Positions 15,647 through 36,583 of a stretch of DNA of 64,000 nt are shown here, in pieces (positions within the stretch are counted from its first letter, which is position 1; the number at the start of each line of letters is the position of its first letter). This DNA is from Escherichia virus TH58. Location of the stretch: sequence record MT446423.1. One strand, given 5' to 3'. The position numbers and the translations under genes are program-made. Under the pieces are notes generated by a model. It saw only the letters and a program-made list of their open reading frames with translations, searched no databases and was not told where the DNA came from.

Positions 15647-15676
15647 TACTCTATCAAAACAAACAAGGAAACAAAA

Positions 15677-19190: not shown

Positions 19191-19733
19191 ATGAGAAAAG
19201 CACTACTCGCTGGTCTATTTGCTCTTTCATTATCAGCACATAGCTCCGAGCATACTTTTAGTAATGTCCAACTCGATAACTTGAATTATGCTTATCAGTT
19301 TGGGGAACAGTTTTCTAAGGACGGAAAATTTAAAACGCATGAAAATATGCATAAGAAAGGACTTGGATACATAATGGCCGCAATACTATGGCAGGAATCA
19401 TCTGCCGGTATTAATCTTAAAGATAAGAAAGGTCACCATGCGTATGGAATGTTCCAAAATTATCTACCAACAATGAGGGCAAGAATTAACCAGCTTGGTT
19501 ATAATATGTCTGATGCCCAAATTAAGAAAATGCTATCTAAGCGGTCTAATTCAGCCAGATGGGCTTATATCGAATTTTCTTATTGGTTAAATATACATAA
19601 CGGGGATATAAGAAAAGCTATATCCTCATATAATGCGGGATGGAAGACAAGTGCTGGAAGTAAATATGCTTCTGAAGTCCTAGAAAAGGCTAATTACCTT
19701 AAATCAAATAAACTACTGGAAATAAAAGAATGA
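19191..19733 (+). CDS. Secreted lytic transglycosylase-like protein (SLT domain)
   Basis: N-terminal signal peptide; SLT-like motifs WQESS, AYGMFQ, SYNAGW. Confidence 0.55.
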   Translation: MRKALLAGLFALSLSAHSSEHTFSNVQLDNLNYAYQFGEQFSKDGKFKTHENMHKKGLGYIMAAILWQESSAGINLKDKKGHHAYGMFQNYLPTMRARINQLGYNMSDAQIKKMLSKRSNSARWAYIEFSYWLNIHNGDIRKAISSYNAGWKTSAGSKYASEVLEKANYLKSNKLLEIKE

Positions 19734-20077
19734 CCAAAATGTTGGCTTTAATAGTTGGCTTGGTTTCATTTAACGCTCTTGCTAATACTACATATACTGA
19801 TGTAACGGAGTATACAAACAGAACGGCGTCTGATTATTGTGGTCAAAGTCAAGAGTGTAAAGTAGATTTTTCACAAAAATTGTTATATGCGTATAAAGAC
19901 GGAGAAAAAGATGGGGCGTCTAGTAGGTTCAAGGCGTCTACCTTAATTAAAAGATACTATAAAAAATGGCAAATATTAGAATGCTCGGTGGCGGAACCTA
20001 AAGATAAGGCAGCATGCAATTCTATGGTGGACCGTCTAGTTGACTCTTATACTAGAGGACTTGCAGCAAGTGATTAA
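19730..20077 (+). CDS. Secreted protein, function unknown
   Basis: Signal peptide MTKMLALIVGLVSFNALA; 115 aa. Confidence 0.5.
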   Translation: MTKMLALIVGLVSFNALANTTYTDVTEYTNRTASDYCGQSQECKVDFSQKLLYAYKDGEKDGASSRFKASTLIKRYYKKWQILECSVAEPKDKAACNSMVDRLVDSYTRGLAASD

Positions 20078-20537
20078 AAACTATATCAAGGGCGATATTG
20101 TCGCCCTGTTTTCTAAAGGTAATAATATTGCTCATGGGTGTAATTGTTTTCATACAATGGGCGCCGGCGTGGCAGGACAATTAGCAAAGGCTTATCCAAA
20201 AATTTTAGAAGCCGATAAACTTCAAACCGAATTCGGAGACGAGTCTAAACTCGGGACTTATTCGGTTTATGAAAAATATTTTAAGACACATAAAGCTTAT
20301 TGCTTTAATCTTTATACACAGTTTGAGCCGGGACCTAATTTTGAGTACTCTGCTTTAATGAATTGTATAATAGAATTAAATGAATTCGGAAAGAATAAGA
20401 TAACAAAGCCTGTAATTTATATGCCAAGAATTGGTGCAGGTATCGGTGGTGGAAACTGGGATGTCATCGAAGAGATTTTAGATACGTATTCCACTAAACT
20501 AGAAATTGTGATTGTTGATTGGGAACCATTATTATGA
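20070..20537 (+). CDS. Macro-domain protein (ADP-ribose binding or processing)
   Basis: Motifs NIAHGCNCFHTMGAGVAGQLAKAYP and MPRIGAGIGGGNW resemble macrodomain glycine-rich loops; start uncertain (GTG 20070 or TTG 20040). Confidence 0.5.
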   Translation: MIKNYIKGDIVALFSKGNNIAHGCNCFHTMGAGVAGQLAKAYPKILEADKLQTEFGDESKLGTYSVYEKYFKTHKAYCFNLYTQFEPGPNFEYSALMNCIIELNEFGKNKITKPVIYMPRIGAGIGGGNWDVIEEILDTYSTKLEIVIVDWEPLL

Positions 20538-20746
20538 ATATACATTATCCGCATCCATATGACCCAAAGAATAAGGCAGTAATTATTCGACAATGGGAAC
20601 GCATTTGTCGTACCAAATGTCCAATTAATAGTCCACATGATGTAGATAAAGACTACATCGGAACATTCGTTGAATATACCTTTATTGATAAGAAAGGTCG
20701 TAAACAGCATGTAGAAGAATACTGCTTAAAGGTGACATGGTTATGA
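20534..20746 (+). CDS. Hypothetical protein
   Basis: ATG 20534; 70 aa. Confidence 0.4.
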   Translation: MNIHYPHPYDPKNKAVIIRQWERICRTKCPINSPHDVDKDYIGTFVEYTFIDKKGRKQHVEEYCLKVTWL

Positions 20747-20928
20747 GTTTAAGCAAAGAACAAAAAGACAAACTCTTTTCTCTTATCCACGAAGTTATGG
20801 ATAAAAACAGTGAATTGGAAAAAGTTTGTGATGAATGCGGTCCTTTTAATGCAAACGAGTACGAAGAACTTTCTAAAGAATTCGATAATAAAGAACAAGA
20901 ACTTATTAATTATATAAATTCCTTATGA
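20737..20928 (+). CDS. Small acidic protein (tandem paralog A)
   Basis: 63 aa; similar in size and charge to the next ORF. Confidence 0.45.
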   Translation: MVMSLSKEQKDKLFSLIHEVMDKNSELEKVCDECGPFNANEYEELSKEFDNKEQELINYINSL

Positions 20929-21122
20929 TTACTCGCGAACAAAAGAACGAAATATTATTTTTAGTTGGTGAAATTATTAGTTTAGAAAAGGATTTGTCTT
21001 TTGAATTATCTTCTGATTATGGAGATGCCGAAACATATTACGAATTAGTAAAATCTATCGATAAAGCTGAAAATGATTTAGAAACATATTTAGAAAATTT
21101 AACTAAGGACTCTTATGGCTAG
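20925..21122 (+). CDS. Small acidic protein (tandem paralog B)
   Basis: 65 aa; REQK..L...E motif shared with 20737..20928. Confidence 0.45.
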   Translation: MITREQKNEILFLVGEIISLEKDLSFELSSDYGDAETYYELVKSIDKAENDLETYLENLTKDSYG

Positions 21123-21696
21123 TTTAATTTTTACATATGCCGCTATGAATGCTGGTAAGTCTGCTTCATTACTTACTGCCGCACATAACTATAAAGAACG
21201 TGGCATGGGTGTATTAGTTCTTAAACCGGCTATTGATACTCGCGATTCAAAAGGTGAAATAGTCTCTCGTATTGGTATTCGTCAAGACGCCAATATAATT
21301 ACAAAAGACATGGATATCTTTGAATTCTATAAATGGGCTGCAGCACAAAAGGATATTCATTGTGTATTTGTTGACGAAGCTCAATTCTTAACTACTGAAA
21401 AGGTGTATCAACTTAGTCGTATTGTTGACGTATACAATGTGCCGGTAATGGCATATGGACTACGAACAGATTTTAAAGGTAATCTATTTGAAGGTTCTCA
21501 AGCATTAATGGCTATTGCCGATAAGCTTGTTGAACTTAAAGGTGTCTGTCATTGTGGTAAAAAGGCCACAATGGTAGCTAGAGTCACGGAAGACGGACTT
21601 CCAATTACAGATGGCAGTCAAATTGAAATTGGTGATACTGATAGATATGTGTCATTATGCCGGAAGCATTGGAATGATTTGACAGGGTTGTTATAA
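21115..21696 (+). CDS. tk: Thymidine kinase
   Basis: P-loop AMNAGKS, zinc-ribbon CHCGKKA...CRKH; 193 aa. Confidence 0.9.
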   Translation: MASLIFTYAAMNAGKSASLLTAAHNYKERGMGVLVLKPAIDTRDSKGEIVSRIGIRQDANIITKDMDIFEFYKWAAAQKDIHCVFVDEAQFLTTEKVYQLSRIVDVYNVPVMAYGLRTDFKGNLFEGSQALMAIADKLVELKGVCHCGKKATMVARVTEDGLPITDGSQIEIGDTDRYVSLCRKHWNDLTGLL

Positions 21697-21723
21697 ATAC
21701 TAATATCTAACCAAGAGGTATAT

Positions 21724-21936
21724 ATGCAGCAATTAAACGAAAGACAACTTCGTAATCTTACTGTAACCCAATTGGATGAAATCCGAAGAGAATTAGGACA
21801 TTCTATTTCTCATTTAAACGAGGATATCCGTCAAACTGGTTCTAAAGCTGATTATACACGCAAGCGCAAGCTGGAAAAATACCTCACAGATGTTAAGGCC
21901 GTCCAAAGGCGAAAAATAAATACTGGCCAAAATTAA
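21724..21936 (+). CDS. Hypothetical basic protein (rI.-1 position)
   Basis: 70 aa; AAGAGG RBS. Confidence 0.5.
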
Positions 21937-21948
21937 CAGGAGGCCTAT

Positions 21949-22252
21949 ATGGCCTTAAGAGCGATAGCTGTCATGGCGATGCTGGGGTTTTTTTGCAGCA
22001 ACAACTCCTATCGTTGGTACTGCACATATTGACCCATATTTTGATAACTTTATGGAATCAGGGATTAAAAACGTATATACTTTGTTTGAAATTCAAAATG
22101 TCGAGAATTCTGAAAAATTCTATAAGTATATGGCAAAGCATTACAAAAATAGCCCCTGTGATGATGCATTTGAATGTCATGAACAAGGCATAAAAACTGC
22201 CAGACAATTTGCCGAGTTCATGAAAATAAAATTAGAGCCTACATCTATCTAA
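21949..22252 (+). pseudogene. rI: rI lysis-inhibition regulator (antiholin), reading frame broken at a T7 tract
   Basis: AGGAGG-ATG at 21949 encodes signal-anchor MALRAIAVMAMLGFF, then stops at 22030; frame +1 from 21995 continues AATTPIVGTAHIDPYFDNFMESGIK...KIKLEPTSI, which matches T4 RI; frames join if the T run 21988-21994 had 6 rather than 7 T. Confidence 0.6.
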
Positions 22253-22259
22253 TTTACCT

Positions 22260-22287
22260 GCCCCTTCCGAAAGGTTGGGGCTTTTTG
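22260..22287 (+). terminator. Rho-independent terminator
   Basis: GCCCCTTCCGAAAGGTTGGGGC plus T5. Confidence 0.75.
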
Positions 22288-22295
22288 TATAAATA
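22288..22295 (+). promoter_or_regulatory. Late promoter TATAAATA
   Basis: Exact TATAAATA 25 nt upstream of the ATG at 22320. Confidence 0.5.
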
Positions 22296-22319
22296 TCCTT
22301 GTAAACTAAGAGAGGATAT

Positions 22320-22877
22320 ATGAAATTTTTAAAATATGTAAGTTGGGTTGTTCTTGTTCCTATAGATTGGATCGCAGCGATTTTAGCAATTATTCTAGCG
22401 CCATTTGTAGTTCCATTCCATAGTGAAAAAACCGGTAAACTACCTTATGGCTTTAACTGGATGATGACTTACGATAATCCTATCGATGGTGACCGCGGCC
22501 ATGTTGAACGTTGGTCTAAAATACGTAAAATTCCTGTTATAGGTAAATATGCTCAACGCGTAGCTTGGCTATGGCGCAACAAAGCATATAATTTTTCGTA
22601 TCATGTTTTAGGTCGCGAAGCTTCATCAGAATGGCATTATAAAGGCAACGCCGAAACTAAATCTGGATCTCCTGATCCAGCACATCATGGATATCTTTTA
22701 GTTTGGAACGAGTCGGCATGGGGATTATTCGCTGCTATACCTTATCTTAAGGTTGGTGGTATTACATTTTATCTGCGTGTTTACTGTGGTTGGAAACTTA
22801 AGAGTCTTTTGAGTCGTCCTATTCCACGCGCAATGCTTTCATTCCATATCAACCCTTTACGATATTACAAAAACTAA
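22320..22877 (+). CDS. Membrane protein, likely late-expressed (rI.1 position)
   Basis: N-terminal TM helices; 185 aa; flanked by two terminators and preceded by a late promoter. Confidence 0.55.
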   Translation: MKFLKYVSWVVLVPIDWIAAILAIILAPFVVPFHSEKTGKLPYGFNWMMTYDNPIDGDRGHVERWSKIRKIPVIGKYAQRVAWLWRNKAYNFSYHVLGREASSEWHYKGNAETKSGSPDPAHHGYLLVWNESAWGLFAAIPYLKVGGITFYLRVYCGWKLKSLLSRPIPRAMLSFHINPLRYYKN

Positions 22878-22882
22878 TCAAA

Positions 22883-22910
22883 GCCCCTTCCGAAAGGTTG
22901 GGGCTTTTTG
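22883..22910 (+). terminator. Rho-independent terminator
   Basis: Same hairpin GCCCCTTCCGAAAGGTTGGGGC plus T5. Confidence 0.75.
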
Positions 22911-22920
22911 GCATCTATCA

Positions 22921-22950
22921 GTTTACTTCTCCTCAGGTTGTGTTATAGTA
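22921..22950 (+). promoter_or_regulatory. Early promoter GTTTAC / TATAGT
   Basis: GTTTAC 22921-22926, 18-nt spacer, TATAGT 22945-22950. Confidence 0.5.
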
Positions 22951-22976
22951 GTCCTTACTTAATAGAGGAGAATGTT

Positions 22977-23156
22977 ATGACACGTAAAGAAAAAATTTCT
23001 AAGTTAATGTTTTTGATTGAAGAGTATGCTAATGCGGTGTCTGATTGGGAAAATGCTCATGGTTGTGAAGATGGAGACATCGACATTAACAGAGCTATGA
23101 AAAAGATGGCTGAAGCCCACACCGAATTGCAAATGTATGTTAACGAGATTATGTGA
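22977..23156 (+). CDS. Small hypothetical protein
   Basis: ATG 22977 after AGAGGAG; 59 aa. Confidence 0.45.
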   Translation: MTRKEKISKLMFLIEEYANAVSDWENAHGCEDGDIDINRAMKKMAEAHTELQMYVNEIM

Positions 23157-23163
23157 GGATATT

Positions 23164-23328
23164 ATGCTTTACGATTATACTGGAAAATCTGAAGACGGTG
23201 TACTTGAACTTTTACCTGAAAGCGCTGAAGATGATATGGTGGTGATATATTGTGTTGGTTGTCAATCAATGCATGATGAAATTTTTAAACGTGAACCAAG
23301 AAACTGTTGGCACAGGAGCATGAGATGA
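23164..23328 (+). CDS. Small Cys-containing protein (paralog A; MLYDYTGKSEDGVLEL)
   Basis: GAGGA RBS; CVGC motif. Confidence 0.45.
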   Translation: MLYDYTGKSEDGVLELLPESAEDDMVVIYCVGCQSMHDEIFKREPRNCWHRSMR

Positions 23329-23419
23329 TTTATTATCTTGAACCTTGGGCTTGGTTAACAATGGCTGTAGGACCTGTTTTAATTGGTTTATTCTTTTCAT
23401 GGTTAGCGAGGAAACTGTA

Positions 23420-23635
23420 ATGTTATATGACCCAAGCGGTTGTTCTGAAGATGGTGTGATTGTTCTGGAGCCTGAGCATCCAGTTGGTGATGTATATCGC
23501 ACCGTTGAAGTATGCGAATGTAATTTCGTTGAAGGTAATACTGGCGGAATTTCCATTGAGCAAGATGATGATGTTATTTACCTGGATGCAAGCCAAGTTG
23601 AAGAGCTTTATCAACATTTAAAACACAATCGGTAG
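23420..23635 (+). CDS. Small protein (paralog B; MLYDPSGCSEDGVIVL)
   Basis: GAGGAAA RBS; N-terminus homologous to 23164 ORF. Confidence 0.5.
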   Translation: MLYDPSGCSEDGVIVLEPEHPVGDVYRTVEVCECNFVEGNTGGISIEQDDDVIYLDASQVEELYQHLKHNR

Positions 23636-23664
23636 TTTACGTTTTGGTAGGACTATGATATAGT
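23635..23664 (+). promoter_or_regulatory. Early promoter GTTTAC / TATAGT with inverted repeat TAGGACTAT...TAATCCTA
   Basis: GTTTAC 23635-23640; TATAGT 23659-23664. Confidence 0.5.
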
Positions 23665-23692
23665 AATCCTACCAAAACAAATGGAGAACAAA

Positions 23693-23803
23693 ATGAAACT
23701 TTTGCTTATCGCTTATGTTGTAGTACAATACAATTATCCGATGTTTACTTATAACATGGTAAACGGCATAGTGAATCTTATTGAAACGAGTATGGTAAAA
23801 TGA
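23693..23803 (+). CDS. Small hydrophobic peptide (36 aa)
   Basis: GGAG RBS then ATG; MKLLLIAYVVVQYNYPMF...; below the track length cut-off. Confidence 0.3.
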   Translation: MKLLLIAYVVVQYNYPMFTYNMVNGIVNLIETSMVK

Positions 23804-23979
23804 CCCGTGAACAAGCTAATAAATTGATGGACCTTATCCATGACTTACGTGAAGCTGATTCAGATTTGAATGATGTAGCTTATCATGCGGTAAATGATAA
23901 CGGAGATTTTTATGAAAATCAGGTTGATGCTTGCCAGAATGCTTTGGTGAATTTTGTTGAAACTTTAATTGGTGAATAA
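23800..23979 (+). CDS. Small acidic protein (59 aa)
   Basis: ATGA overlap with preceding peptide; below the track length cut-off. Confidence 0.3.
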   Translation: MTREQANKLMDLIHDLREADSDLNDVAYHAVNDNGDFYENQVDACQNALVNFVETLIGE

Positions 23980-23980
23980 T

Positions 23981-24511
23981 ATGAAAACTGTAATTGAAAC
24001 AACCGAGTTGTTTGGTGATTTATGTATCGAAAAACGTGGTTATGTGTATGTTCTAACACAAGAAGATGATGCTGCTACTATTCTTCCTATGGAACTGGAC
24101 AAGATTTTGAAACTCAATCCACCAGGTCATGCATCTGTAATTAACATCGGTGAAGACCTCCAAGTTCGTTTTTATCATGGACTTTATAGTGGGGTTAATA
24201 TCGAAACTGAAGACGAATGTTTTTCTATTAATAATTGGAAAACATTCGTCACTAAGGTGAAAGAATTAATGGAATCTGAAACAGCCAAAAAGGCCAAACT
24301 TCAATGGGCTAAATGCCGTAATGCTTTTATTACAAATCAGGACCGCCCTGACTATACAACAGTCCTAGGCGTTAATCCTTCTTATGAAGATGGTGATGTC
24401 GTAGTTATTCGTCAAATTGATGACCTTCGTCAACATATCATTACATTAGACAAAGATGAAGCAGTTGCTCTTAAAGCTTATCTTGATTCTATTATCCCGA
24501 CTTTGAAATAA
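23981..24511 (+). CDS. Hypothetical protein
   Basis: ATG 23981; 176 aa. Confidence 0.5.
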   Translation: MKTVIETTELFGDLCIEKRGYVYVLTQEDDAATILPMELDKILKLNPPGHASVINIGEDLQVRFYHGLYSGVNIETEDECFSINNWKTFVTKVKELMESETAKKAKLQWAKCRNAFITNQDRPDYTTVLGVNPSYEDGDVVVIRQIDDLRQHIITLDKDEAVALKAYLDSIIPTLK

Positions 24512-24520
24512 GGAATTATT

Positions 24521-24994
24521 ATGATTATCAATGAAAACTCTTGGCACTTTAAAATTTATGCCGCGTTCAATAGTACATGGAATCGCCCTAAAACATTATG
24601 TGCTTATTTTTGGAAAACGTTAATCCCGGTATTGTCTGTTTCAATTATCGGATTTGCGATTTTAGCAGCAGTAACAATCATTGGCCAGGAAATTTTAACT
24701 AAATTCTTTGTTTTTAGCAGTCTATGGACATTAGTTCCAGCCTCAATTGGCGTAGGCATTTTAATGACATCGGTCATGGCTTTTATTTCTGCCGGGTTGA
24801 TAATTGGTCCGTCTTGGTTGTTAGACAAATATAACGACAGAAAATATTATAAAGAAATTGAGTTCATTGCGAAAAACCAAGAACGAATTAAAAATGGACT
24901 TGAGCCTATTGAACGTAAGAAATCATTAATAGGTGAATACCTTAAAGCTCGTAAAGAAAAAGTCTGTCCTACTCTTGAATATAAGGCTAAATGA
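24521..24994 (+). CDS. Membrane protein
   Basis: Three predicted TM helices; 157 aa. Confidence 0.55.
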   Translation: MIINENSWHFKIYAAFNSTWNRPKTLCAYFWKTLIPVLSVSIIGFAILAAVTIIGQEILTKFFVFSSLWTLVPASIGVGILMTSVMAFISAGLIIGPSWLLDKYNDRKYYKEIEFIAKNQERIKNGLEPIERKKSLIGEYLKARKEKVCPTLEYKAK

Positions 24995-26004
24995 TGAAAA
25001 CAATTGTGAAAACTTATTTTGGTAGCCACCTTTATGGAACGTCTACCCCAGAATCTGACGTCGATTTTAAAGAAATTTATGTCCCTCATGCTCGTGATAT
25101 CTTGACCGGTAACGTTAAAGAACACATGAGCAAGAACACGAATAACACATCTTCTAAGAACACAAAAGACGACGTGGACCATGAGTTGTATAGTCTCAAA
25201 TATTTCTTTAAACTAGCTGCTGAAGGCGAAACCGTTGCTCTGGACATGATTCACACACCGGCTGAAATGGTGGTTAAATCTGATTTACCTGATGTATGGA
25301 AATTTATCCAAGACAATCGTTCACGCTTCTATACAACTAACATGAAAGCCTATTTAGGGTACGTCCGTAAGCAAGCTTCTAAATATGGTGTTAAGGGTTC
25401 TCGTCTGGCTGCTCTGCGTGGTGTACTGGCTATCGTTAACCAGATTCCTGAACAATGGGTTGATTATCAAGAAGGAATCCCTGATAGACTTCGTCGTACT
25501 AAAGTAGAAGATATCAAACACAGACTCCCTGAAAACGAGTTCTGTGAATGGGTATTCCATAACCATGAGAAAACAGGCCCACAAACGTTCTATACTGTTC
25601 TCGGACGTAAGTACCAAACAACGTTATCAATTACAGAGCTCAAGCAATCTCTGAATAAGCTTGATGCTGAATATGGTGAACGTGCTCGTAAGGCAGAAGC
25701 TAACGAAGGTATTGACTGGAAAGCATTGAGTCATGCATGTCGTGGTGGACTTCAACTATTAGAAATTTACAAAACCGGCGACCTGGTTTACCCACTTCAG
25801 GATGCTCCATTTATTCTCGATGTTAAGCTTGGTAAACATACGTTTAAAACTGTACAAGAATTCCTAGAAGATATCGTTGACCAAGTTGAACATGCGTCAG
25901 AACAAGCTGCCAAGAATGGTATGCAGCAAAAAGTAGATATGAGTTTCTGGGATGACTTCCTTGAACAAGTTTACTTAGAAAACCACAATTCGTACTATAA
26001 ATGA
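24991..26004 (+). CDS. Putative nucleotidyltransferase-fold protein
   Basis: N-terminal YFGSHLYGTSTPESDVDF (GS...DhD signature); 337 aa; hairpin GGGCCTTCGGGCCC downstream. Confidence 0.5.
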   Translation: MMKTIVKTYFGSHLYGTSTPESDVDFKEIYVPHARDILTGNVKEHMSKNTNNTSSKNTKDDVDHELYSLKYFFKLAAEGETVALDMIHTPAEMVVKSDLPDVWKFIQDNRSRFYTTNMKAYLGYVRKQASKYGVKGSRLAALRGVLAIVNQIPEQWVDYQEGIPDRLRRTKVEDIKHRLPENEFCEWVFHNHEKTGPQTFYTVLGRKYQTTLSITELKQSLNKLDAEYGERARKAEANEGIDWKALSHACRGGLQLLEIYKTGDLVYPLQDAPFILDVKLGKHTFKTVQEFLEDIVDQVEHASEQAAKNGMQQKVDMSFWDDFLEQVYLENHNSYYK

Positions 26005-26051
26005 TAAGGGCCTTCGGGCCCTTTAGGGGGTCAAAATATTTTTAAAAAGTA

Positions 26052-26080
26052 GTGTACATGCTTTTAGGATATGTTATTAT
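26052..26080 (+). promoter_or_regulatory. Early promoter variant (GTGTAC, TATTAT) with AGGTCTAT-type hairpin
   Basis: GTGTAC 26052-26057, TATTAT 26075-26080. Confidence 0.4.
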
Positions 26081-26118
26081 AGACCTATCGAAACGAAATG
26101 AGTAAATTGGAGAATAAA

Positions 26119-27099
26119 ATGTTCAACGTTCAAATCAAAAAAGGTATCTATCGTAATAACGAAATCTCTGGTTCTTATGTTGCCACAAAGACATGGTTCC
26201 CGGCAAAGCTTAATCCTGAATGTTCCCACTTAGGTGACGGTAAAATTTTCGTTATGATCGATGGTTCTGAACGTGGAGTATGGGTCTTCAAATCAGACAT
26301 CGTAATGGAAGGAGTTGAGACGTCACCAGTTGCAGTTGTTGAAAGCACTGAAGATATGAAAACTCGTATCAACAAACGCTTTAAAGTAATGAACATGATG
26401 ACGAACGGCATTATCGATGGCAAAATTCGTTCACTCATTATTTCAGGTGCAGCTGGTATTGGTAAGACGTATTCTCTGGATAAAGCACTTAATAATGCTA
26501 ATGATAATGGTTTCATCAAATACAAAAGCATTAATGGTAAAATCTCCGGTATTGGCCTTTACGAACAACTTTGGCTCAACCGTGATGCAGACAGCGTTCT
26601 CTTAATCGACGACGTTGACGTATTCTCGGATATGGACATCTTGAACCTTCTTAAAGCAGCATTAGATACCGGTGATAAACGCAAAGTTTGTTGGAGCACT
26701 GCGTCATCTTATCTCGATGATAAGGGTATTGATAAAGAATTTGAGTTTGAAGGTACTATCGTTTTCATTACAAACGTTGATATCGATAAAGAGTTAGAAC
26801 GTGGTTCGAAACTTGCTCCACACCTTCAAGCTTTAGTATCTCGTTCAGTGTATCTCGACCTTGGAGTACACTCTAATGAAGAGATTATGGTTCGAGTTGA
26901 AGATGTAATATTATCTACTGACATGATGCAGAAACGTGGTCTGACGGATGCAGAAACGTATAAAGCATTGTCCTGGATGAAGGCTAACGTATCTCGTCTT
27001 CGCAATGTATCATTACGTACGGCTCTTTATGTAGCAGATTTTATTTCAACTGATAAAGATGGTTGGGAAGAAATCTCGGAAGTTACTTTACTGAAATAA
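26119..27099 (+). CDS. AAA-type ATPase
   Basis: Walker A GAAGIGKT, Walker B VLLIDDVD; ATG 26119 after GGAG. Confidence 0.6.
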   Translation: MFNVQIKKGIYRNNEISGSYVATKTWFPAKLNPECSHLGDGKIFVMIDGSERGVWVFKSDIVMEGVETSPVAVVESTEDMKTRINKRFKVMNMMTNGIIDGKIRSLIISGAAGIGKTYSLDKALNNANDNGFIKYKSINGKISGIGLYEQLWLNRDADSVLLIDDVDVFSDMDILNLLKAALDTGDKRKVCWSTASSYLDDKGIDKEFEFEGTIVFITNVDIDKELERGSKLAPHLQALVSRSVYLDLGVHSNEEIMVRVEDVILSTDMMQKRGLTDAETYKALSWMKANVSRLRNVSLRTALYVADFISTDKDGWEEISEVTLLK

Positions 27100-27237
27100 G
27101 CTTATAGGAAGTTCTGAGGTAACAAAAGCCATAAAGATGAATAATCATATGGCTTACCTCAAAGAAGGACACCAGGAACCTACTGAGGGCATAGAAATAT
27201 TTAAAAATAATGATGTACAAATCAAAGAGGATATGTT

Positions 27238-27525
27238 ATGGATTTTATGCAAAAAATTAAAGCCGCAGTCGAACTGTATGCTCATCGTATGGTTAGTTCT
27301 ACGATGCAATATAGCGAGGATGTTCGCCAGGACTCTTCCTTGAAAGGAAAAACTAAAGCCTTAATTACCTTAGATCGTTTGCAAAAGAATGCCATAGAGA
27401 TGCTCCAGTACGACAAGGATGCATATAAGAAAGAACAGGAAGAGAAACTTAAATCTGAAAAATTACAGAAAATTCCGAAATCGGTTTGGTTCAGTGGAAA
27501 AAATACCGAAAAAAGTTTCTTTTAG
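27238..27525 (+). CDS. Hypothetical basic protein
   Basis: AGAGGA RBS; 95 aa. Confidence 0.5.
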   Translation: MDFMQKIKAAVELYAHRMVSSTMQYSEDVRQDSSLKGKTKALITLDRLQKNAIEMLQYDKDAYKKEQEEKLKSEKLQKIPKSVWFSGKNTEKSFF

Positions 27526-27527
27526 TT

Positions 27528-27556
27528 GTTTACAAGGTCTATGGTTATGTTATTAT
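27528..27556 (+). promoter_or_regulatory. Early promoter GTTTAC / TATTAT with hairpin AGGTCTAT...ATAGACCT
   Basis: GTTTAC 27528-27533, 17-nt spacer, TATTAT 27551-27556. Confidence 0.5.
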
Positions 27557-27583
27557 AGACCTATCAACTACTGGAGGTAAAAC

Positions 27584-28112
27584 ATGAACGCTAAAGATAT
27601 TTTCAACCTGGTAAATTATAACGACGGTAAATTTAAATCTGAAGCACAAAGCAAGTTCTTTAACGACGTTGCTTATGGTAACGAGATTACCGTGGACGGA
27701 GGTCAGATTTTCAAATCTCGCTGGAATTGGATTGCTATCATCGATTCAGTTGGAATTGTGGAAGTCTACAAAAACACTAGCAAAAAAACGTACATTATTC
27801 TGGTCTCGTGAAACTAACGAGCAGTACAAAAAGGATAAAGCATCTCGTTTATCCAAAGTAACCCAGGAAGATATCGAGTTTATCAAGAAAGATATCGAGA
27901 TGTACGAAAATTTAATCGCTGAAGACCAGGCAGTACTCGATAAGTTTGATGAAATTAAAGCTTCTCGTGAAATCCCTGACTTCATGAAAGAAACAGTAAA
28001 CGAACGATACGCTCTCACTTCAGAACGTATTGCAAACTATACAAAACAGAAAGCAGAACGTATTAGTACTCTTCGGAAATTTGAAGAACGTTTAAAGACG
28101 GTTCACGCATAA
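27584..28112 (+). CDS. Hypothetical protein, apparently split by a +1 frame change at an A7 tract
   Basis: ORF 27584..27811 (GGAGG RBS) and ORF continuing to 28112 overlap across the A run 27782-27788; the downstream segment has no credible own start. Confidence 0.4.
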
Positions 28113-28174
28113 ACGCTTTACCCAAGGACGGGTTATAATGGTTTTGAGTTCCAATTCAATCTGAGGAAATAGTT

Positions 28175-29170
28175 ATGAGCATTACATCTGATGCGGTAAA
28201 ACATGAAATTAACGGTTTATGTGCTTCACAGATTAAAGTGTGGTTTAAAGACCATAATGATCGCAGAGCACTTAATTATGAGCAAATTGCTATCCAAGTT
28301 CATCAATTACTGACTAGTAAATTTGATTTTCATATGCCATCTGAAATCTATACTAATCTACCGCGAGCGCTTATTAAAGCGTGTAAAGGTTACGGAAAAT
28401 CAATGGCCGATGGAATCTTCAGCGCGCTGAATAAACTTAACGTTCTATCGATGATTAACTCTAACAACATCCTGCGTAATCTAGGACGTACTGATTTGTT
28501 CGGTCGTGAACAGTGTAAAATGCCTTTGAAATGGATTGTTGCTCATCTTAACGAGAACCAAACACGTTTTCTGGCCGTATCAGCACGCTTACAAATGGGC
28601 CTAGATCGTCAGATGAACTTTAAAACTCATCCACGTTATTCAGGTTCAACAGACTTTTATAAATGTGAGCTTCAAAAGGTTGCAGGTAAAACTGTCTTAG
28701 TAGTTCGTGTAACGTTTGAAGGACGACGTCAAGGATATTTTGACCTAATCGGCTCCGGTCTTAAACATTGTGGATTTATTGTCGAAGTTGATATCAAGCG
28801 AGACGGCATTGGATACCGTATTGGATATGTTTGTACTCTTAAAGAAGAGATTTCAGGACCAGCACCAGGACTAAAAGACGTTAGATATAAAGACGAGCTC
28901 GTTGAAGAAATAAAAGAAGTTGAATATGATATCAACCAAGAAGATGCTCTTAAAGACCTTATTGATGAACTAAACCAAGACGTTATTCCGGTTCAGAAAT
29001 TTGAATCAAAACATGCTGAGCAAATCAAATACTTTGAAGCTTTGATTAACGAACTTAATGTAACTATTCAACAGACTGACGACGAAATCTCACGATTAGC
29101 AGGCTTAAACGGTAAAAATAAAACAGAACGAGCTAATCTTATTCAAGTAGTAAAACTTCTTAAGGAATGA
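28175..29170 (+). CDS. Hypothetical protein
   Basis: 331 aa; GAGGAAA RBS. Confidence 0.55.
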   Translation: MSITSDAVKHEINGLCASQIKVWFKDHNDRRALNYEQIAIQVHQLLTSKFDFHMPSEIYTNLPRALIKACKGYGKSMADGIFSALNKLNVLSMINSNNILRNLGRTDLFGREQCKMPLKWIVAHLNENQTRFLAVSARLQMGLDRQMNFKTHPRYSGSTDFYKCELQKVAGKTVLVVRVTFEGRRQGYFDLIGSGLKHCGFIVEVDIKRDGIGYRIGYVCTLKEEISGPAPGLKDVRYKDELVEEIKEVEYDINQEDALKDLIDELNQDVIPVQKFESKHAEQIKYFEALINELNVTIQQTDDEISRLAGLNGKNKTERANLIQVVKLLKE

Positions 29171-29199
29171 TGTACAACCAAGGATGGTTGGAGTATAAT
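29171..29199 (+). promoter_or_regulatory. Early promoter cassette ACAACCAAGGATGGTTGGAGTATAAT (hairpin CCAACC/GGTTGG)
   Basis: Near-identical cassette repeated at 30163 and in variant form at 7690. Confidence 0.5.
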
Positions 29200-29225
29200 A
29201 AATTTTTCAACATGAGGAATATAAA

Positions 29226-30158: not shown

Positions 30159-30162
30159 ATCA

Positions 30163-30192
30163 GTTTACAACCAAGGATGGTTGGAGTATAAT
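30163..30192 (+). promoter_or_regulatory. Early promoter cassette (GTTTAC...TATAAT), repeat of 29171 cassette
   Basis: GTTTACAACCAAGGATGGTTGGAGTATAAT. Confidence 0.55.
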
Positions 30193-33250: not shown

Positions 33251-33724
33251 ATGTTATTATCAGGCGCAAAATATAAAGAAGAAAAACAAAAATTTTATGA
33301 TGCACAGAATGGTAAGTGTCCTATTTGCCACCGTGAATTAGACCCTGATGTTCAAGGTAACCATCTTGACCACGACCACGAATTAAACGGGCCAAAAGCA
33401 GGTAGAGTTCGTGGGTTACTCTGTAATCTGTGCAACGCAGCAGAAGGTCAAATGAAGCATAAGTTCAACCGTTCCGGTCTTAAAGGACGTGATGTTGACT
33501 ACCTCGAATGGCTTGAAGCTCTTCTTGCTTATTTGAAACAAGATTATTCTGATAATAATATCCATCCTAATTTTGTTCCAGACAAAACTAAAGAGTTCTC
33601 AAGACTAGGTAAAGAGGAAATGATGGCTGAGATGCTTCAAAGAGGATTTGAATATAATGAATCTGATACCAAAACACAATTAATAGCTTCATTCAAAAAG
33701 CAGCTTAGAAAGAGTTTAAAATGA
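33251..33724 (+). CDS. 49: Endonuclease VII (Holliday junction resolvase gp49)
   Basis: CPICHREL...HLDHDHELNGPKAGRVRGLLCNLCN zinc and HNH-like motif of T4 endo VII; 157 aa. Confidence 0.9.
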   Translation: MLLSGAKYKEEKQKFYDAQNGKCPICHRELDPDVQGNHLDHDHELNGPKAGRVRGLLCNLCNAAEGQMKHKFNRSGLKGRDVDYLEWLEALLAYLKQDYSDNNIHPNFVPDKTKEFSRLGKEEMMAEMLQRGFEYNESDTKTQLIASFKKQLRKSLK

Positions 33725-34258
33725 AAATTGAAAAAGAAATTGAAGGATTAATTCATAAAACTAATAAAGATCTTTTGAACGAGAATGCTAATAAAGATTC
33801 TCGTGTTTTTCCAACTCAACGGGACCTTATGGCTGGTATTGTGTCTAAGCACATTGCTAGAAATATGGTCCCGTCTTTTATTATGAAAGCACATGAAAGC
33901 GGAATTATCCATTTCCATGATATTGATTATTCCCCTGCTCTTCCGTTTACTAATTGCTGTTTAGTAGATTTAAAAGGAATGCTTGAGAATGGATTTAAAT
34001 TAGGCAATGCTCAAATTGAAACGCCTAAATCTATTGGCGTTGCTACTGCAATTATGGCACAAATTACTGCACAAGTTGCTTCACATCAGTACGGCGGAAC
34101 GACTTTTGCTAATGTAGATAAAGTACTTTCTCCTTATGTTAAACGCACCTATGCAAAACATATTGAGGATGCAGAAAAATGGCAAATCGCTGATGCGTTG
34201 AATTATGCCCAATCTAAAACAGAAAAAGACGTATACGATGCATTCCAAGCTTATGAGT
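33721..34258 (+). CDS. nrdD: Anaerobic ribonucleotide reductase NrdD, exon 1
   Basis: Frame continues to predicted 5' splice site after T34258 (P1: exon ATGAGT pairs with intron GCTCAT 34272-34277, U-G at splice site); in-frame TAA follows in intron. Confidence 0.75.
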
Positions 34259-34469
34259 TAATTTAATTCAGGCTCATGTAAAACCGGTCTAAACGGGGAA
34301 CCTCTCTAGTAGACAATCCCGTGCTAAATGTTCTTTTGAACTAAATGCCTAACGACTAACCGTGATGAATGTAGCGGTGTAGAATAGAAGCTAATGCTAT
34401 TCGAAACGGCCGGCATCGAAAGATGAAGATATAGTCTAATCTGCATGGCGACATGCAGCAGTCATCTTG

Positions 34470-34477
34470 TATAAATA
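34470..34477 (+). promoter_or_regulatory. Late promoter TATAAATA inside the intron, upstream of the homing endonuclease ORF
   Basis: Exact TATAAATA about 30 nt before the ATG at 34507. Confidence 0.45.
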
Positions 34478-34506
34478 AGATTATCTTATGAATACGAGGT
34501 GAAACA

Positions 34507-35277
34507 ATGAAATGGATAAAAAGACGTTGTACTAAAATAAAAGATAAAGACGCATTTACATACTTAGTTAAGTTTTCTAATGGCGACATTTATATCGGTT
34601 ATAAAAAATTTAGAACAATTAAAAACAAGCCCACAAACTGGAAAACTTACACAACGTCATCTAAGTATATAAATGAACGCTTAAAAACTGATACACCTAC
34701 TAAATGGATAATTTTAAAAACATTTGATAGTTATAAAGACGCATTAAAACATGAAGAAGAGGTCATACGTAAATATTTTTATAACAAAAAATGTTTAAAT
34801 AAATCCATAGGCGGTAAAAAGTTTTATAAGCATCCGGATACTGAAGAACATATTCAAAAATTAAGAGATGCTCATAAGGGTAAAGTGTTATCCGAATCTC
34901 ATAAAAACAATATAAAATCTTCTGTAGCTGAATATTATGCTAAAAACGGAAGATCTAAGGAACATGTGCAAAATAATATCAATAGTCGAAAAAGTAAAAA
35001 ACAAGTATCGATAAAGCTTAAAAATAAAACTTTTAGAAGTTTTAAAAAAGCGGCGGAATATTTAAATTGCACTGAAAGTGAAGTCGAAACTCATCCTCTT
35101 GTTTTGAGTATTAAGACTACTATTCATAAAGTTCCTGAATATGTGGTTGTTGACGGTATTAAGTATACGTCTTATATAGAAGCAGCTAAAGCGCTAAATT
35201 TTCATCCTAGCACTATAAAAGAACGTTGCATATCTATGGACTATCCAAATTTTGTTGTTTCATATAAACGGGCATGA
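34507..35277 (+). CDS. Intron-encoded GIY-YIG homing endonuclease (I-TevII-like)
   Basis: N-terminal FTYLVKFSNGDIYIGYKK (GIY-YIG), NUMOD-like repeats, C-terminal HTH-like tail; 256 aa; GAGGTGA RBS. Confidence 0.75.
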   Translation: MKWIKRRCTKIKDKDAFTYLVKFSNGDIYIGYKKFRTIKNKPTNWKTYTTSSKYINERLKTDTPTKWIILKTFDSYKDALKHEEEVIRKYFYNKKCLNKSIGGKKFYKHPDTEEHIQKLRDAHKGKVLSESHKNNIKSSVAEYYAKNGRSKEHVQNNINSRKSKKQVSIKLKNKTFRSFKKAAEYLNCTESEVETHPLVLSIKTTIHKVPEYVVVDGIKYTSYIEAAKALNFHPSTIKERCISMDYPNFVVSYKRA

Positions 35278-35291
35278 ATTTGCGACTCATG

Positions 35292-36583
35292 CTGAATATA
35301 ATGATGAAGTAAATACACTTTTCAGCTCTAATGGACAAACGCCTTTTGTAACAATTACATTTGGAACAGGAACTGACTGGACTGAACGAATGATTCAAAA
35401 AGCAATTCTGAAAAATCGTATTAAAGGTCTTGGACGTGACGGGATAACTCCTATTTTCCCTAAACTTGTTATGTTCGTTGAAGAAGGTGTTAATCTTTAT
35501 AAAGACGACCCGAACTACGATATTAAGCAGCTTGCTCTAGAGTGTGCAAGCAAAAGAATGTATCCTGATATTATTTCGGTTAAGAATAATAAAACTATCA
35601 CCGGTTCTTCAGTTCCTGTTTCTCCAATGGGCTGCCGTAGTTTCTTGAGCGTATGGAAAGATTCGACTGGTAATGAAATTCTTGATGGACGTAATAATCT
35701 TGGCGTTGTAACACTGAATCTTCCTCGTATTGCATTAGATTCTTATATTGGAACACAATTCAATGAACAGAAATTTGTTGAGTTATTTAATGAACGAATG
35801 GATCTGTGTTTTGAAGCCTTGATGTGTAGAATTAGTTCCTTAAAAGGAGTTAAAGCGACTGTTGCTCCTATTCTTTATCAAGAAGGTGCATTTGGGGTTC
35901 GTCTTAAACCTGATGATGACATAATTGAGTTATTTAAAAACGGTAGAAGTTCGGTGTCTTTAGGATACATTGGTATTCATGAATTGAATATTCTTGTCGG
36001 ACGTGATATTGGGCAAGAAATTTTAACTAAAATGAATGCTCGTCTTAAGCAGTGGACTGAAAGAACTGGTTTTGCTTTTAGCTTGTATTCTACTCCCGCT
36101 GAAAACCTTTGTTATCGCTTCTGTAAACTTGATACCGAGAAATATGGAAGTGTAAAAGATGTTACTGATAAAGGCTGGTACACTAATAGTTTCCATGTTT
36201 CAGTAGAAGAAAATATCACTCCGTTTGAAAAGATTTCTCGCGAAGCACCATATCATTTCATTGCGACCGGCGGACACATTTCTTATGTTGAACTTCCTGA
36301 TATGAAAAATAACTTAAAAGGACTTGAGGCTGTATGGGATTATGCCGCACAACATTTAGATTATTTTGGTGTTAATATGCCAGTAGATAAATGTTTTACA
36401 TGTGGAAGTACCCATGAAATGACTCCTACCGAAAACGGATTTGTTTGTTCTATTTGTGGAGAAACTGATCCTAAAAAGATGAACACAATAAGAAGAACAT
36501 GCGGTTATCTCGGAACTCCTAGCGTTGTTCCGTGGAATTTAGGTAAAATGAAAGAAATGGTAAAACGAGTAAAACATGCATAG
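35292..36583 (+). CDS. nrdD: Anaerobic ribonucleotide reductase NrdD, exon 2
   Basis: Contains C-terminal glycyl-radical motif RRTCGYLG and Cys-rich zinc site CFTCGSTHEMTPTENGFVCSICG; spliced product about 609 aa. Confidence 0.8.

What the first reader, a model, noticed from the sequence alone, without database searches (positions are those of the whole stretch)
21949..22252. rI (lysis-inhibition antiholin) is split by one extra T in a T7 homopolymer
A strong AGGAGG-ATG start at 21949 encodes a signal-anchor (MALRAIAVMAMLGFF) and terminates after 27 codons, while the RI periplasmic domain is in the +1 frame from 21995 with no start codon or RBS of its own. Removing one T from the run at 21988-21994 fuses them into an RI-like protein of about 100 aa. 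This is either an r-type (rapid lysis) mutation, a homopolymer sequencing error, or slippage-dependent expression.
Basis: seen in the sequence. Interest (0 to 1): 0.6.

Follow-up and report, generated by a model that had tools for sequence, protein, structure and literature searches.

The report
Frameshifted lysis-inhibition gene rI in phage
This T4-like coliphage (genus Mosigvirus) has one extra T in a run of six T's inside rI, the gene that delays lysis, so the gene is almost certainly switched off; this is an ordinary "rapid-lysis" type mutation at a slippage-prone site, and it has arisen at least three separate times.

Summary
An AGGAGG-ATG start at 21949 opens a 27-codon ORF. A T7 run lies at 21988-21994, and the rest of RI (85 codons) is in the +1 frame up to 22252. 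Deleting one T gives a 100-aa protein identical to an RI allele found on 50 public contigs (Pfam Antiholin, 85 bits; T4 RI structures 6PSK/6PSH).

T6 is the wild type. It is present in every other phage record tested except one, and in 6 of 6 metagenome and IMG/VR contigs. This rules out a conserved programmed frameshift.

T7 recurs on three different haplotypes: this window, phage WFbE185, and a Logan contig from run ERR14207008. In each case the closest relatives carry T6.

A random sequencing error is unlikely. An independent Logan assembly of run SRR11772947 matches 10.6 kb of the window exactly, T7 included. Among about 130-147 comparable homopolymers per genome, almost none differ in length.

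Best reading: a real +1 replication-slippage mutation that inactivates rI, probably enriched during laboratory isolation or propagation. Laboratory passage is documented to select rI mutants in the related phage RB69.

The kind of event is textbook; only this particular hotspot appears to be undescribed. Interest is low to moderate. A second frameshift, in the nrdC.8-like gene, was found in passing.

The parts
21679..21706 (+). Sigma-70-like promoter (TTGACA-16-TAATAT) just upstream of rI.1; a candidate early promoter for the rI.1-rI pair
   Evidence: Consensus scan, 10 of 12 matches. This is a consensus match only, and the number of such sites in the region is no higher than in shuffled sequence.
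21724..21936 (+). rI.1 homologue (70 aa), the conserved upstream neighbour of rI; intact
   Evidence: ORF. It matches phrog_1826 over its full length. Relatives annotate it as rI.1 (SQ17, JS09, RB69). The pre-computed Pfam hit in relatives is PF26904 Phage_T4_Y05Q.
21938..21943 (+). Shine-Dalgarno AGGAGG, 5 nt upstream of the rI start codon
   Evidence: Read from the sequence. It is identical in all relatives aligned.
21949..22032 (+). Truncated rI reading frame of 27 codons. Residues 1-15 (MALRAIAVMAMLGFF) are the first part of the RI N-terminal membrane (signal-anchor-release) domain. Residues 16-27 (CSNNSYRWYCTY) are out-of-frame junk, followed by TGA.
   Evidence: The apolar stretch is cut from 19 residues (AIAVMAMLGFFAATTPIVG in the T6 form) to 11, read directly from the sequence.
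21988..21994 (+). T7 homopolymer: the lesion. Wild type is T6 (GGG TTT TTT GCA = Gly-Phe-Phe-Ala).
   Evidence: T7 is present in the window, WFbE185 and the ERR14207008 contig. T6 is present in all 12 other relatives read. In the top 60 phage records, 59 span one base fewer than the query. Only WFbE185 among 146 records carries the frameshift peptide in a single piece.
21995..22252 (+). Remainder of rI in the +1 frame: the end of the membrane domain plus the whole periplasmic antiholin domain (85 codons and TAA). It cannot be reached from the rI start codon.
   Evidence: Translation. It aligns to the soluble domain of T4 RI in PDB 6PSK/6PSH over query residues 26-96/97 (E about 4e-23), and both Cys residues of the PC...FEC motif are conserved.
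22052..22252 (+). Internal ATG ORF (66 aa, from Met35 of RI). This is what gene callers report in T7 genomes. It has no RBS and no export signal, so it is not expected to act in the periplasm.
   Evidence: It scores 62 bits against Pfam Antiholin. In WFbE185 it is annotated as hypothetical protein QBQ77611.1.
22260..22286 (+). Terminator-like hairpin (GCCCCTTCC-GAAA-GGTTGGGGC) followed by TTTTT, directly after rI
   Evidence: Read from the sequence. The simple scanner did not report it because of a 2x2 internal mismatch.

Best explanation
The window comes from a Mosigvirus, a T4-like coliphage in the RB69/JS09 group. Its rI antiholin gene carries a real single-base insertion (T6 to T7) inside codons 14-15, within the N-terminal membrane domain.

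How the mutation arises: it is the classic product of strand slippage by the phage DNA polymerase on a mononucleotide run.

What it does to the protein: translation from the only usable start (AGGAGG-ATG at 21949) ends after 27 codons. The periplasmic domain that binds the holin is therefore never made with an export signal. The allele should be null.

Expected phenotype: loss of RI-dependent lysis delay, meaning rapid lysis, a shorter latent period, and larger, clearer plaques.

Why it recurs: the same change has arisen independently at least three times. The T6 run is a mutational hotspot, and loss of rI is favoured or unwittingly picked during enrichment, plaque picking and high-host-density propagation. 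A further slip back to T6 would reverse it.

Shown here: the lesion, the wild-type state, the recurrence on different haplotypes, and the cleanliness of the assemblies.

Inferred, not shown: that the change is in the DNA rather than in base calls, the null phenotype, and the role of selection.
For: 1. Identity of the gene. The T6-corrected ORF is RI: Pfam PF24205 at 85 bits over the full length, PHROG 1246 'lysis inhibition', and the T4 RI structures 6PSK/6PSH. It sits in the tk - rI.1 - rI order seen in SQ17, JS09 and RB69.

2. The change is recent. The corrected protein is identical to an allele on 50 contigs, so it is one base away from a common wild type with no further decay.

3. T6 is the wild type. 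It is found in all 12 other relatives read directly, including RB69. Of the top 60 phage records, 59 span one base fewer than the query. Among 146 records, only WFbE185 carries the frameshift peptide in one piece. A pattern scan allowing T5-T9 found only T6 in 3 IMG/VR and 3 metagenome contigs. The RI cluster is dominated by 100-aa members, with a single 66-aa form among those listed.

4. Independent origins. T7 occurs in the window, in WFbE185 (MK373778.1) and in Logan contig ERR14207008_20330. Over 544 nt of rI.1-rI, the nearest neighbours of each carrier are T6 genomes (3, 6 and 5 differences). The carriers differ from one another by 7-15 substitutions.

5. Not a sloppy assembly.
- Logan contig SRR11772947_294 matches window 19584-30190 at 100.000% over 10,607 nt, including T7.
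- Of 143, 114 and 108 homopolymers of 5 or more bases comparable with SQ17, JS09 and LF82-1, only the rI run differs from all three.
- WFbE185 has no private homopolymer length among 141 comparable runs.
- An ORF audit against three relatives finds only rI and nrdC.8 truly frameshifted in 64 kb.

6. Selection is plausible. According to Abedon's review (PMC6832632), r mutants appear at 1e-3 to 1e-4 in T-even stocks and give larger, clearer plaques. In serial transfer of RB69, the type Mosigvirus, six of six sequenced short-latent-period mutants carried rI mutations.

7. Slippage at such runs is documented. Homopolymers of 6 or more bases in T2/T4, including A6 in rIIA, give reversible frameshifts at rates far above base substitutions (preprint 10.1101/2025.10.21.683753).
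Against: - No reads were available. The sequencing platform of SRR11772947 is unknown, and the window may have been assembled from that same run. The two assemblies therefore share any systematic base-calling error.
- The same genome has a second +1 change in an A run (nrdC.8, 27782-27788). This could also be read as a sign of homopolymer over-calling.
- WFbE185 was sequenced by either PacBio RSII or MiSeq. The paper does not say which was used for this phage.
- No phenotype data exist for any of the three T7 carriers.
- RB69 is reported not to show classical lysis inhibition even with an intact rI. The phenotype in a Mosigvirus may therefore be a shorter latent period rather than the textbook r plaque.
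- Three carriers among several hundred assemblies is a small number.
Confidence: 0.75

Rival explanations
1. Homopolymer sequencing or assembly artefact: the phage really has T6 and an intact rI, and the extra T is a consensus error.
For: The change is a +1 in a homopolymer, the commonest error class for several platforms. The same genome shows a second +1 in an A6 run. The reads could not be inspected, and WFbE185 may be a PacBio RSII assembly.
Against: - A k-mer-based Logan assembly from the reads of SRR11772947 reproduces 10.6 kb of the window with no difference, T7 and A7 included. A long, error-free de Bruijn contig implies accurate reads (inference).
- Homopolymer lengths otherwise agree with relatives at about 130-147 comparable runs per genome, in both the window and WFbE185. 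Random errors would not strike the same run in three assemblies from different sources.
- Hundreds of other assemblies, presumably made on various platforms, report T6, so the sequence context does not systematically cause a miscall.
- The nrdC.8 change comes with an adjacent A-to-G substitution, which is not a typical homopolymer miscall.
Confidence: 0.12
2. Slippage-dependent expression: full-length RI is still made from the T7 allele in useful amounts. This could happen by +1 ribosomal re-pairing of tRNA-Phe on UUU-UUU-U, or by RNA polymerase dropping a U, so the split gene would be functional or regulated.
For: - A +1 shift on UUU UUU U re-pairs perfectly and would give exactly the wild-type protein, which follows from the sequence.
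- A G-rich, Shine-Dalgarno-like GGGG ends 3 nt before the shift codon. From my own knowledge, this spacing resembles the prfB +1 frameshift site.
- The downstream domain has no additional damage in any of the three carriers.
Against: - The out-of-frame layout is not conserved. About 99% of relatives encode RI in one frame with T6, so nothing suggests a selected recoding signal.
- The 0-frame A-site codon is an ordinary sense codon (UGC), not a stop or a known hungry codon.
- From established knowledge, a run of 7 is below the length (about 9 or more) at which E. coli RNA polymerase slips efficiently.
- RI inhibits the holin stoichiometrically, 1:1 (review), so a yield of a few percent should not restore function.
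- The lack of decay is equally well explained by a very recent origin.
Confidence: 0.05
3. Adaptive contingency locus: the T6 run in Mosigvirus rI is maintained because it switches rI off and on at high frequency. Every population would then hold both rapid-lysing and lysis-delaying phages (bet-hedging), and the window is simply an OFF-phase genome.
For: - The run meets the operational definition used for T2/T4 contingency loci: a homopolymer of 6 or more bases inside an ORF (preprint 10.1101/2025.10.21.683753).
- Both lengths are seen in nature, on several haplotypes.
- The phenotype has opposing fitness effects depending on host density (review).
Against: - TTT is the expected Phe codon in an AT-rich genome, so Phe-Phe encoded as T6 needs no special explanation.
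- The window holds 55 other runs of 6 bases and 5 other runs of 7, so this run is not exceptional.
- Conservation of the run among relatives that are 96-99% identical says little.
- No within-population frequencies or switching rates are available.
- Only about 1% of assemblies are in the OFF state.
Confidence: 0.08

Closest known systems
Bacteriophage T4 RI antiholin (gene rI; Pfam PF24205; PDB 6PSH, 6PSK, 6PX4)
   Same: - The T6-corrected protein matches the family profile end to end (85 bits).
- It aligns to the T4 RI soluble domain (E about 4e-23), with both cysteines conserved.
- It has the same N-terminal apolar domain layout and the same position next to tk and rI.1.
   Different: In this genome the gene is interrupted at codon 15/16, so the membrane domain and the periplasmic domain are in different frames. 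As encoded, it is a pseudogene or null allele rather than a working family member. RB69, the type Mosigvirus, is also reported not to show classical lysis inhibition, so the role of RI in this genus may be a constitutive lysis delay.
Spontaneous r (rapid-lysis) mutants of T-even phages and homopolymer frameshift hotspots (Hershey's r mutants; Benzer/Streisinger rII hotspots; the rI mutational spectra of Burch et al. 2011, cited from the review and from my own knowledge because the paper was not held)
   Same: It is a loss-of-function change in an r gene caused by a +1 change in a mononucleotide run. It recurs at the same site in independent lineages. It lies in a gene whose loss gives a visible, selectable laboratory phenotype.
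   Different: The site is specific to Mosigvirus. From my recollection of the T4 RI sequence, T4 has no Phe-Phe/T6 at this position. No plaque or lysis data exist for these isolates, so the r phenotype is inferred.
Phage 'contingency loci' (Gomez, Barrick and Waters, bioRxiv 10.1101/2025.10.21.683753), for example A6 in T4 rIIA
   Same: It is a homopolymer of 6 or more bases inside a lysis-timing gene. A +1 frameshift knocks the gene out and can revert by a second slip. ON and OFF alleles are both seen.
   Different: That work measured switching rates and fitness effects. Here only static genomes are available, and nothing shows that the run is maintained for switching.
Programmed +1 frameshifting (E. 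coli prfB) and transcriptional slippage genes (for example dnaX in Thermus, IS element transposases)
   Same: A slippery run lies at the junction of two overlapping frames that together encode one protein. There is also a G-rich element 3 nt upstream.
   Different: Those arrangements are conserved across species and have defined stimulators, such as a stop codon in the A site or runs of 9 or more. Here the split is absent from about 99% of relatives.

Membership tests
T4-type RI antiholin (PF24205 / PHROG 1246) | Full-length sequence match to the family profile | tested here: met
   After removing one T: PF24205 at 85.1 bits (cut-off 27), residues 1-98 against profile positions 1-94 of 96; phrog_1246 at 106 bits. 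The 66-aa fragment alone scores 62 bits.
T4-type RI antiholin (PF24205 / PHROG 1246) | N-terminal membrane (signal-anchor-release) domain and periplasmic domain encoded in one continuous reading frame | tested here: not met
   The frame breaks at the T7 run 21988-21994. The start-codon frame stops at 22030-22032, and the periplasmic domain is in the +1 frame.
T4-type RI antiholin (PF24205 / PHROG 1246) | Periplasmic domain homologous to the solved T4 RI domain, including the conserved cysteine pair | tested here: met
   Alignment to 6PSK_R and 6PSH_A over residues 26-96/97 (E about 4e-23). PC...FEC is conserved.
T4-type RI antiholin (PF24205 / PHROG 1246) | Conserved genomic position (tk - rI.1 - rI) | tested here: met
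   tk is at 21115..21696, rI.1 at 21724..21936 and rI starts at 21949. SQ17, JS09, RB69, LF82-1 and WFbE185 have the same order.
T4-type RI antiholin (PF24205 / PHROG 1246) | Binds the periplasmic domain of holin T and delays lysis on superinfection | not testable with these tools
   This needs lysis curves or binding assays. The holin gene t is not in the window.
Spontaneous homopolymer frameshift (r-type) mutation | Differs from the wild type by +/-1 base in a mononucleotide run, and the wild type predominates among relatives | tested here: met
   The window has T7. T6 is found in all 12 other relatives read, in 59 of the top 60 records, in 145 of 146 records by the frameshift-peptide test, and in 6 of 6 environmental contigs.
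Spontaneous homopolymer frameshift (r-type) mutation | Recurs independently at the same site (hotspot) | tested here: met
   There are three carriers on three haplotypes, and each is closest to T6 genomes.
Spontaneous homopolymer frameshift (r-type) mutation | Present in the DNA of the stock rather than only in base calls | tested here: inconclusive
   An independent assembly from reads agrees, and the assemblies are otherwise clean at homopolymers. The reads and the platform could not be examined.
Spontaneous homopolymer frameshift (r-type) mutation | Rapid-lysis or short-latent-period phenotype | not testable with these tools
   No phenotype data. Expected from the T4 and RB69 literature.
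Programmed frameshift / transcriptional slippage gene | The two-frame arrangement is conserved among homologues | tested here: not met
   Relatives encode RI in a single frame; only 3 assemblies have the split.
Programmed frameshift / transcriptional slippage gene | Slippery sequence plus a recognised stimulator | tested here: inconclusive
   UUU UUU U allows perfect +1 re-pairing, and GGGG lies 3 nt upstream. The A-site codon is an ordinary UGC, and a run of 7 is short for RNA polymerase slippage (own knowledge).
Phage contingency locus (as defined by Gomez et al. 2025) | Homopolymer of 6 or more bases within an ORF, with both lengths observed | tested here: met
   T6 and T7 are both present in rI among Mosigvirus assemblies. 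Definition taken from the preprint.
Phage contingency locus (as defined by Gomez et al. 2025) | Measured high-rate, reversible switching within a population, with a fitness trade-off | not testable with these tools
   This needs deep sequencing of clonal stocks and competition assays.

The most novel reading that the evidence does not exclude
The T6 run in the signal-anchor domain of Mosigvirus rI could act as a genuine phase-variation switch for lysis timing. Replication slippage would keep seeding every population with rI-OFF (fast-lysing) and rI-ON (lysis-delaying) phages. Low-level +1 ribosomal re-pairing on UUU-UUU-U, helped by the upstream GGGG, might make the OFF state leaky rather than null. 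The three T7 genomes would then be OFF-phase snapshots of a bet-hedging system, not dead-end laboratory mutants.
Probability: 0.08. Interest if true: 0.6.

Novelty: new member of a known kind. Interest (0 to 1): 0.25.

Why it matters
- Annotation: in T7 genomes rI is missed or called as a 66-aa hypothetical protein, as in WFbE185. This window should carry an rI pseudogene or frameshift note.
- Using the phage: an rI-null Mosigvirus is expected to lyse faster, give smaller bursts at high phage density and make larger, clearer plaques. That affects production yields, one-step-growth parameters and behaviour in therapy or biocontrol cocktails.
- Isolation bias: recurrence of the same lesion in independently isolated phages suggests that routine isolation practice may enrich lysis-timing mutants. 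Deposited 'wild-type' genomes would then not always be wild type.
- Research use: it gives a concrete, easily assayed site for testing the recently proposed idea of contingency loci in phages.
- It does not reveal a new mechanism.

Tried and rejected
- Programmed frameshift as a conserved feature: rejected, because T6 in a single frame is the rule.
- The ERR14207008 carrier as a laboratory RB69 derivative, which would have shown de novo origin directly: rejected. It is only 98.4% identical to RB69 over the 938 nt compared and closest (98.8%) to phage ChristianSchoenbein.
- Search for T5 (-1) alleles with the predicted out-of-frame peptide: tblastn returned nothing at all, probably because of low-complexity masking, so it is uninformative. 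The DNA pattern scan allowing T5-T9 found only T6 in environmental contigs.
- ORF-merging heuristic at all runs of 6 or more bases: too noisy because neighbouring genes abut. It was replaced by the relative-based ORF audit and the homopolymer audits.
- Literature look-ups: Burch et al. 2011, Krieger et al. 2020 and Abedon et al. 2003 are not held. SRR11772947 and ERR14207008 appear in no held paper. The supplements of the contingency-locus preprint gave nothing on rI homopolymers.
- Source of the window: the genome is not in the phage collection. The best match is about 96-97% over 20 kb. Only the Logan contig of SRR11772947 matches exactly.

Full report
**What the window is**

A 20-kb piece of the window matches Mosigvirus phages at about 96-97% identity. 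These are T4-like Straboviridae such as SQ17, JS09, NHEP29 and the LF82 series. No record is identical. The finding lies in the conserved tk - rI.1 - rI segment.

- AGGAGG (21938-21943) precedes ATG at 21949. That frame reads MALRAIAVMAMLGFFCSNNSYRWYCTY and stops at 22030-22032.
- The homopolymer is exactly seven T's, at 21988-21994.
- From 21995 the +1 frame reads AATTPIVGTAHIDPYFDNFMESGIKNVY...KLEPTSI, ending at 22252.
- That frame opens at 21968 and has no start codon until ATG 22052 (Met35). This ATG lacks a ribosome-binding site. It gives the 66-aa ORF that gene callers report.
- Deleting one T gives a 100-aa protein. It matches Pfam PF24205 'Antiholin' end to end (85 bits) and PHROG 1246 'lysis inhibition'. 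It also aligns to the solved T4 RI periplasmic domain (6PSK, 6PSH) with both cysteines conserved.
- The corrected protein is identical, residue for residue, to an RI allele recorded on 50 public contigs, for example phage ATK47. The window is therefore one base away from a common wild-type allele and shows no further decay.

**Which state is normal**

- T6 was read directly in LF82-1, FL18, PECP20, SQ17, JS09, RB69, three IMG/VR contigs and three metagenome contigs.
- In a 92-nt megablast, 59 of the 60 best phage records span one base fewer than the query; only WFbE185 spans all 92.
- A tblastn search with the 27-aa frameshift product finds it as a single uninterrupted match in only one of 146 records, again WFbE185.
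- A pattern scan allowing T5 to T9 found only T6 in IMG/VR and in the metagenome collection.
- Among the members of the 90%-identity RI cluster that were listed, almost all are 100 aa and sit on hundreds of contigs. There is a single 66-aa form.
- The split arrangement is therefore not a conserved design, which removes the case for a programmed frameshift.

**T7 is recurrent**

- Looking up the exact 66-aa product gave two other contigs with T7: WFbE185 (MK373778.1, sewage, Germany) and Logan contig ERR14207008_20330. A third contig only appeared truncated because it ends just before the ORF.
- The three carriers sit on different haplotypes. Over 544 nt of rI.1-rI, the window is closest to PECP20 (3 differences) and JS09 (4). 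WFbE185 is closest to PECP20 (6). The ERR14207008 contig is closest to metagenome contig OBCQ01000004 (5). All of these neighbours carry T6.
- The carriers differ from each other by 7-15 substitutions. Independent origin is the simplest reading.
- The ERR14207008 contig is not an RB69 laboratory derivative.

**Real mutation or sequencing error?**

I could not see reads, but several results bear on this.

- Looking up the truncated nrdC.8 product led to Logan contig SRR11772947_294. It is 100.000% identical to window 19584-30190 over 10,607 nt and includes the T7. A separate k-mer assembly from reads therefore gives the same answer. A long, error-free de Bruijn contig implies accurate reads; this last step is an inference.
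- The assembly is not error-prone at homopolymers. Of 143, 114 and 108 runs of 5 or more bases that could be compared with SQ17, JS09 and LF82-1, only the rI run differs from all three.
- WFbE185 has no private homopolymer length among 141 comparable runs.
- An ORF-by-ORF comparison with three relatives finds only two truly frameshifted genes in 64 kb: rI and the nrdC.8-like gene.
- Random errors would not hit the same one of about 60 six-base runs in three assemblies. A context-specific systematic error is hard to square with hundreds of assemblies reporting T6.
- Caveats remain. The window and the Logan contig may derive from the same run. The platform is unknown. Korf et al. do not say whether WFbE185 was sequenced by PacBio RSII or MiSeq. 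The second +1 in an A run could be read as over-calling, although it comes with an adjacent A-to-G substitution, which is not typical of such errors.

**Mechanism and consequence**

- The T6 run encodes Phe14-Phe15 in the middle of the N-terminal apolar segment. In the T6 form this segment is AIAVMAMLGFFAATTPIVG, 19 residues. In the T7 product only 11 apolar residues remain, followed by polar junk.
- In T4, RI is first tethered to the inner membrane by this domain and then released into the periplasm. There it binds the holin T 1:1 and blocks hole formation when superinfection stabilises it (review PMC6832632).
- Without a contiguous export domain the periplasmic domain cannot reach its site of action. 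The internal-ATG fragment would be cytoplasmic and lacks an RBS. I therefore expect a null allele. This is an inference.
- The same review reports that r mutants arise at 1e-3 to 1e-4 in T-even stocks and make larger, clearer plaques.
- It also reports that RB69, the type Mosigvirus, does not show classical lysis inhibition. Even so, when RB69 was evolved by serial transfer, six of six sequenced short-latent-period mutants had rI mutations. Loss of rI is thus a known, readily selected outcome of laboratory propagation in this genus.
- Replication slippage at runs of 6 or more bases in T2/T4, including A6 in rIIA, has recently been shown to give reversible frameshifts at rates orders of magnitude above substitutions (preprint 10.1101/2025.10.21.683753).

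**Rivals**

- Sequencing artefact remains possible (about 0.12) for the reasons above.
- Functional slippage-dependent expression is unlikely (about 0.05). A +1 re-pairing on UUU-UUU-U would give exactly wild-type RI, and a GGGG lies 3 nt upstream. Against this, the arrangement is not conserved, the A-site codon is an ordinary UGC, a run of seven is short for RNA polymerase slippage (own knowledge), and RI acts stoichiometrically.
- An adaptively maintained contingency switch (about 0.08) cannot be excluded. However, TTT-TTT for Phe-Phe is what an AT-rich genome would use anyway, and the window has 55 other six-base runs.

**Novelty**

The kind of event is textbook: a spontaneous frameshift in an r gene at a mononucleotide run. 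The specific hotspot in Mosigvirus rI, and its recurrence in deposited genomes, is to my knowledge not described. No held paper mentions it. I file it as a new member of a known kind, of low to moderate interest. It is useful mainly for annotation and for anyone using these phages.

Noticed in passing
window 27584-28112 (lesion at 27780-27788): A second frameshifted gene. The nrdC.8-like gene (PF26901 Phage_T4_Y05D, phrog_2274) is 175 aa in SQ17, JS09 and LF82-1. Here it is split into a 75-aa ORF (27584..27811) and a remainder running to 28112. The cause is an A-to-G substitution at 27780 plus one extra A in the run 27782-27788 (ACTAACAAAAAACG becomes ACTAGCAAAAAAACG). All 60 listed records of 149 matching phage records span one base fewer than the query, and 148 of the 149 fall in the same identity band. 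The change is reproduced in Logan contig SRR11772947_294.
   Followed up: partly
window 33721-36583: The anaerobic ribonucleotide reductase gene nrdD is split into two ORFs (33721..34266 and 35252..36583) by a 256-aa ORF at 34507..35277. SQ17 annotates a GIY-YIG homing endonuclease at the same place, while JS09, LF82-1 and WFbE185 have an uninterrupted nrdD.
   Followed up: partly
window 22320-22877: A 185-aa predicted membrane protein (Pfam DUF7338, phrog_2143) lies directly downstream of rI and is an insertion/deletion polymorphism. It is present here, in the LF82 phages and in FL18. It is absent from PECP20, WFbE185, JS09 and RB69, where a mobD.2a-like gene follows rI instead.
   Followed up: partly
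L021 (JS09) 23131-23409; L023 (RB69) 631-903: The rI start codon is annotated inconsistently in public records: JS09 has 92 aa, RB69 has 90 aa, and most others have 100 aa. In RB69, which was read here, the upstream AGGAGG-ATG and a full 100-aa frame are present, so its shorter call drops part of the membrane domain; JS09 aligns across the same start.
   Followed up: partly
window 22288-22295 and 21679-21706: TATAAATA, the T4 late-promoter consensus (own knowledge), sits just after the rI terminator hairpin and 25 nt before the DUF7338 gene. A sigma-70-like TTGACA-16-TAATAT sits just before rI.1.
   Followed up: no
L008/L009 (SQ17, MW882907.1): Homopolymer lengths are very stable across Mosigvirus assemblies. 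In the five-genome audit SQ17 has two private differences (an A7 against A6 and a T5 against T4) and the window has one (A5 against A6, at 15673). Their sequence contexts look intergenic or RBS-like, but this was not checked against the annotation.
   Followed up: no
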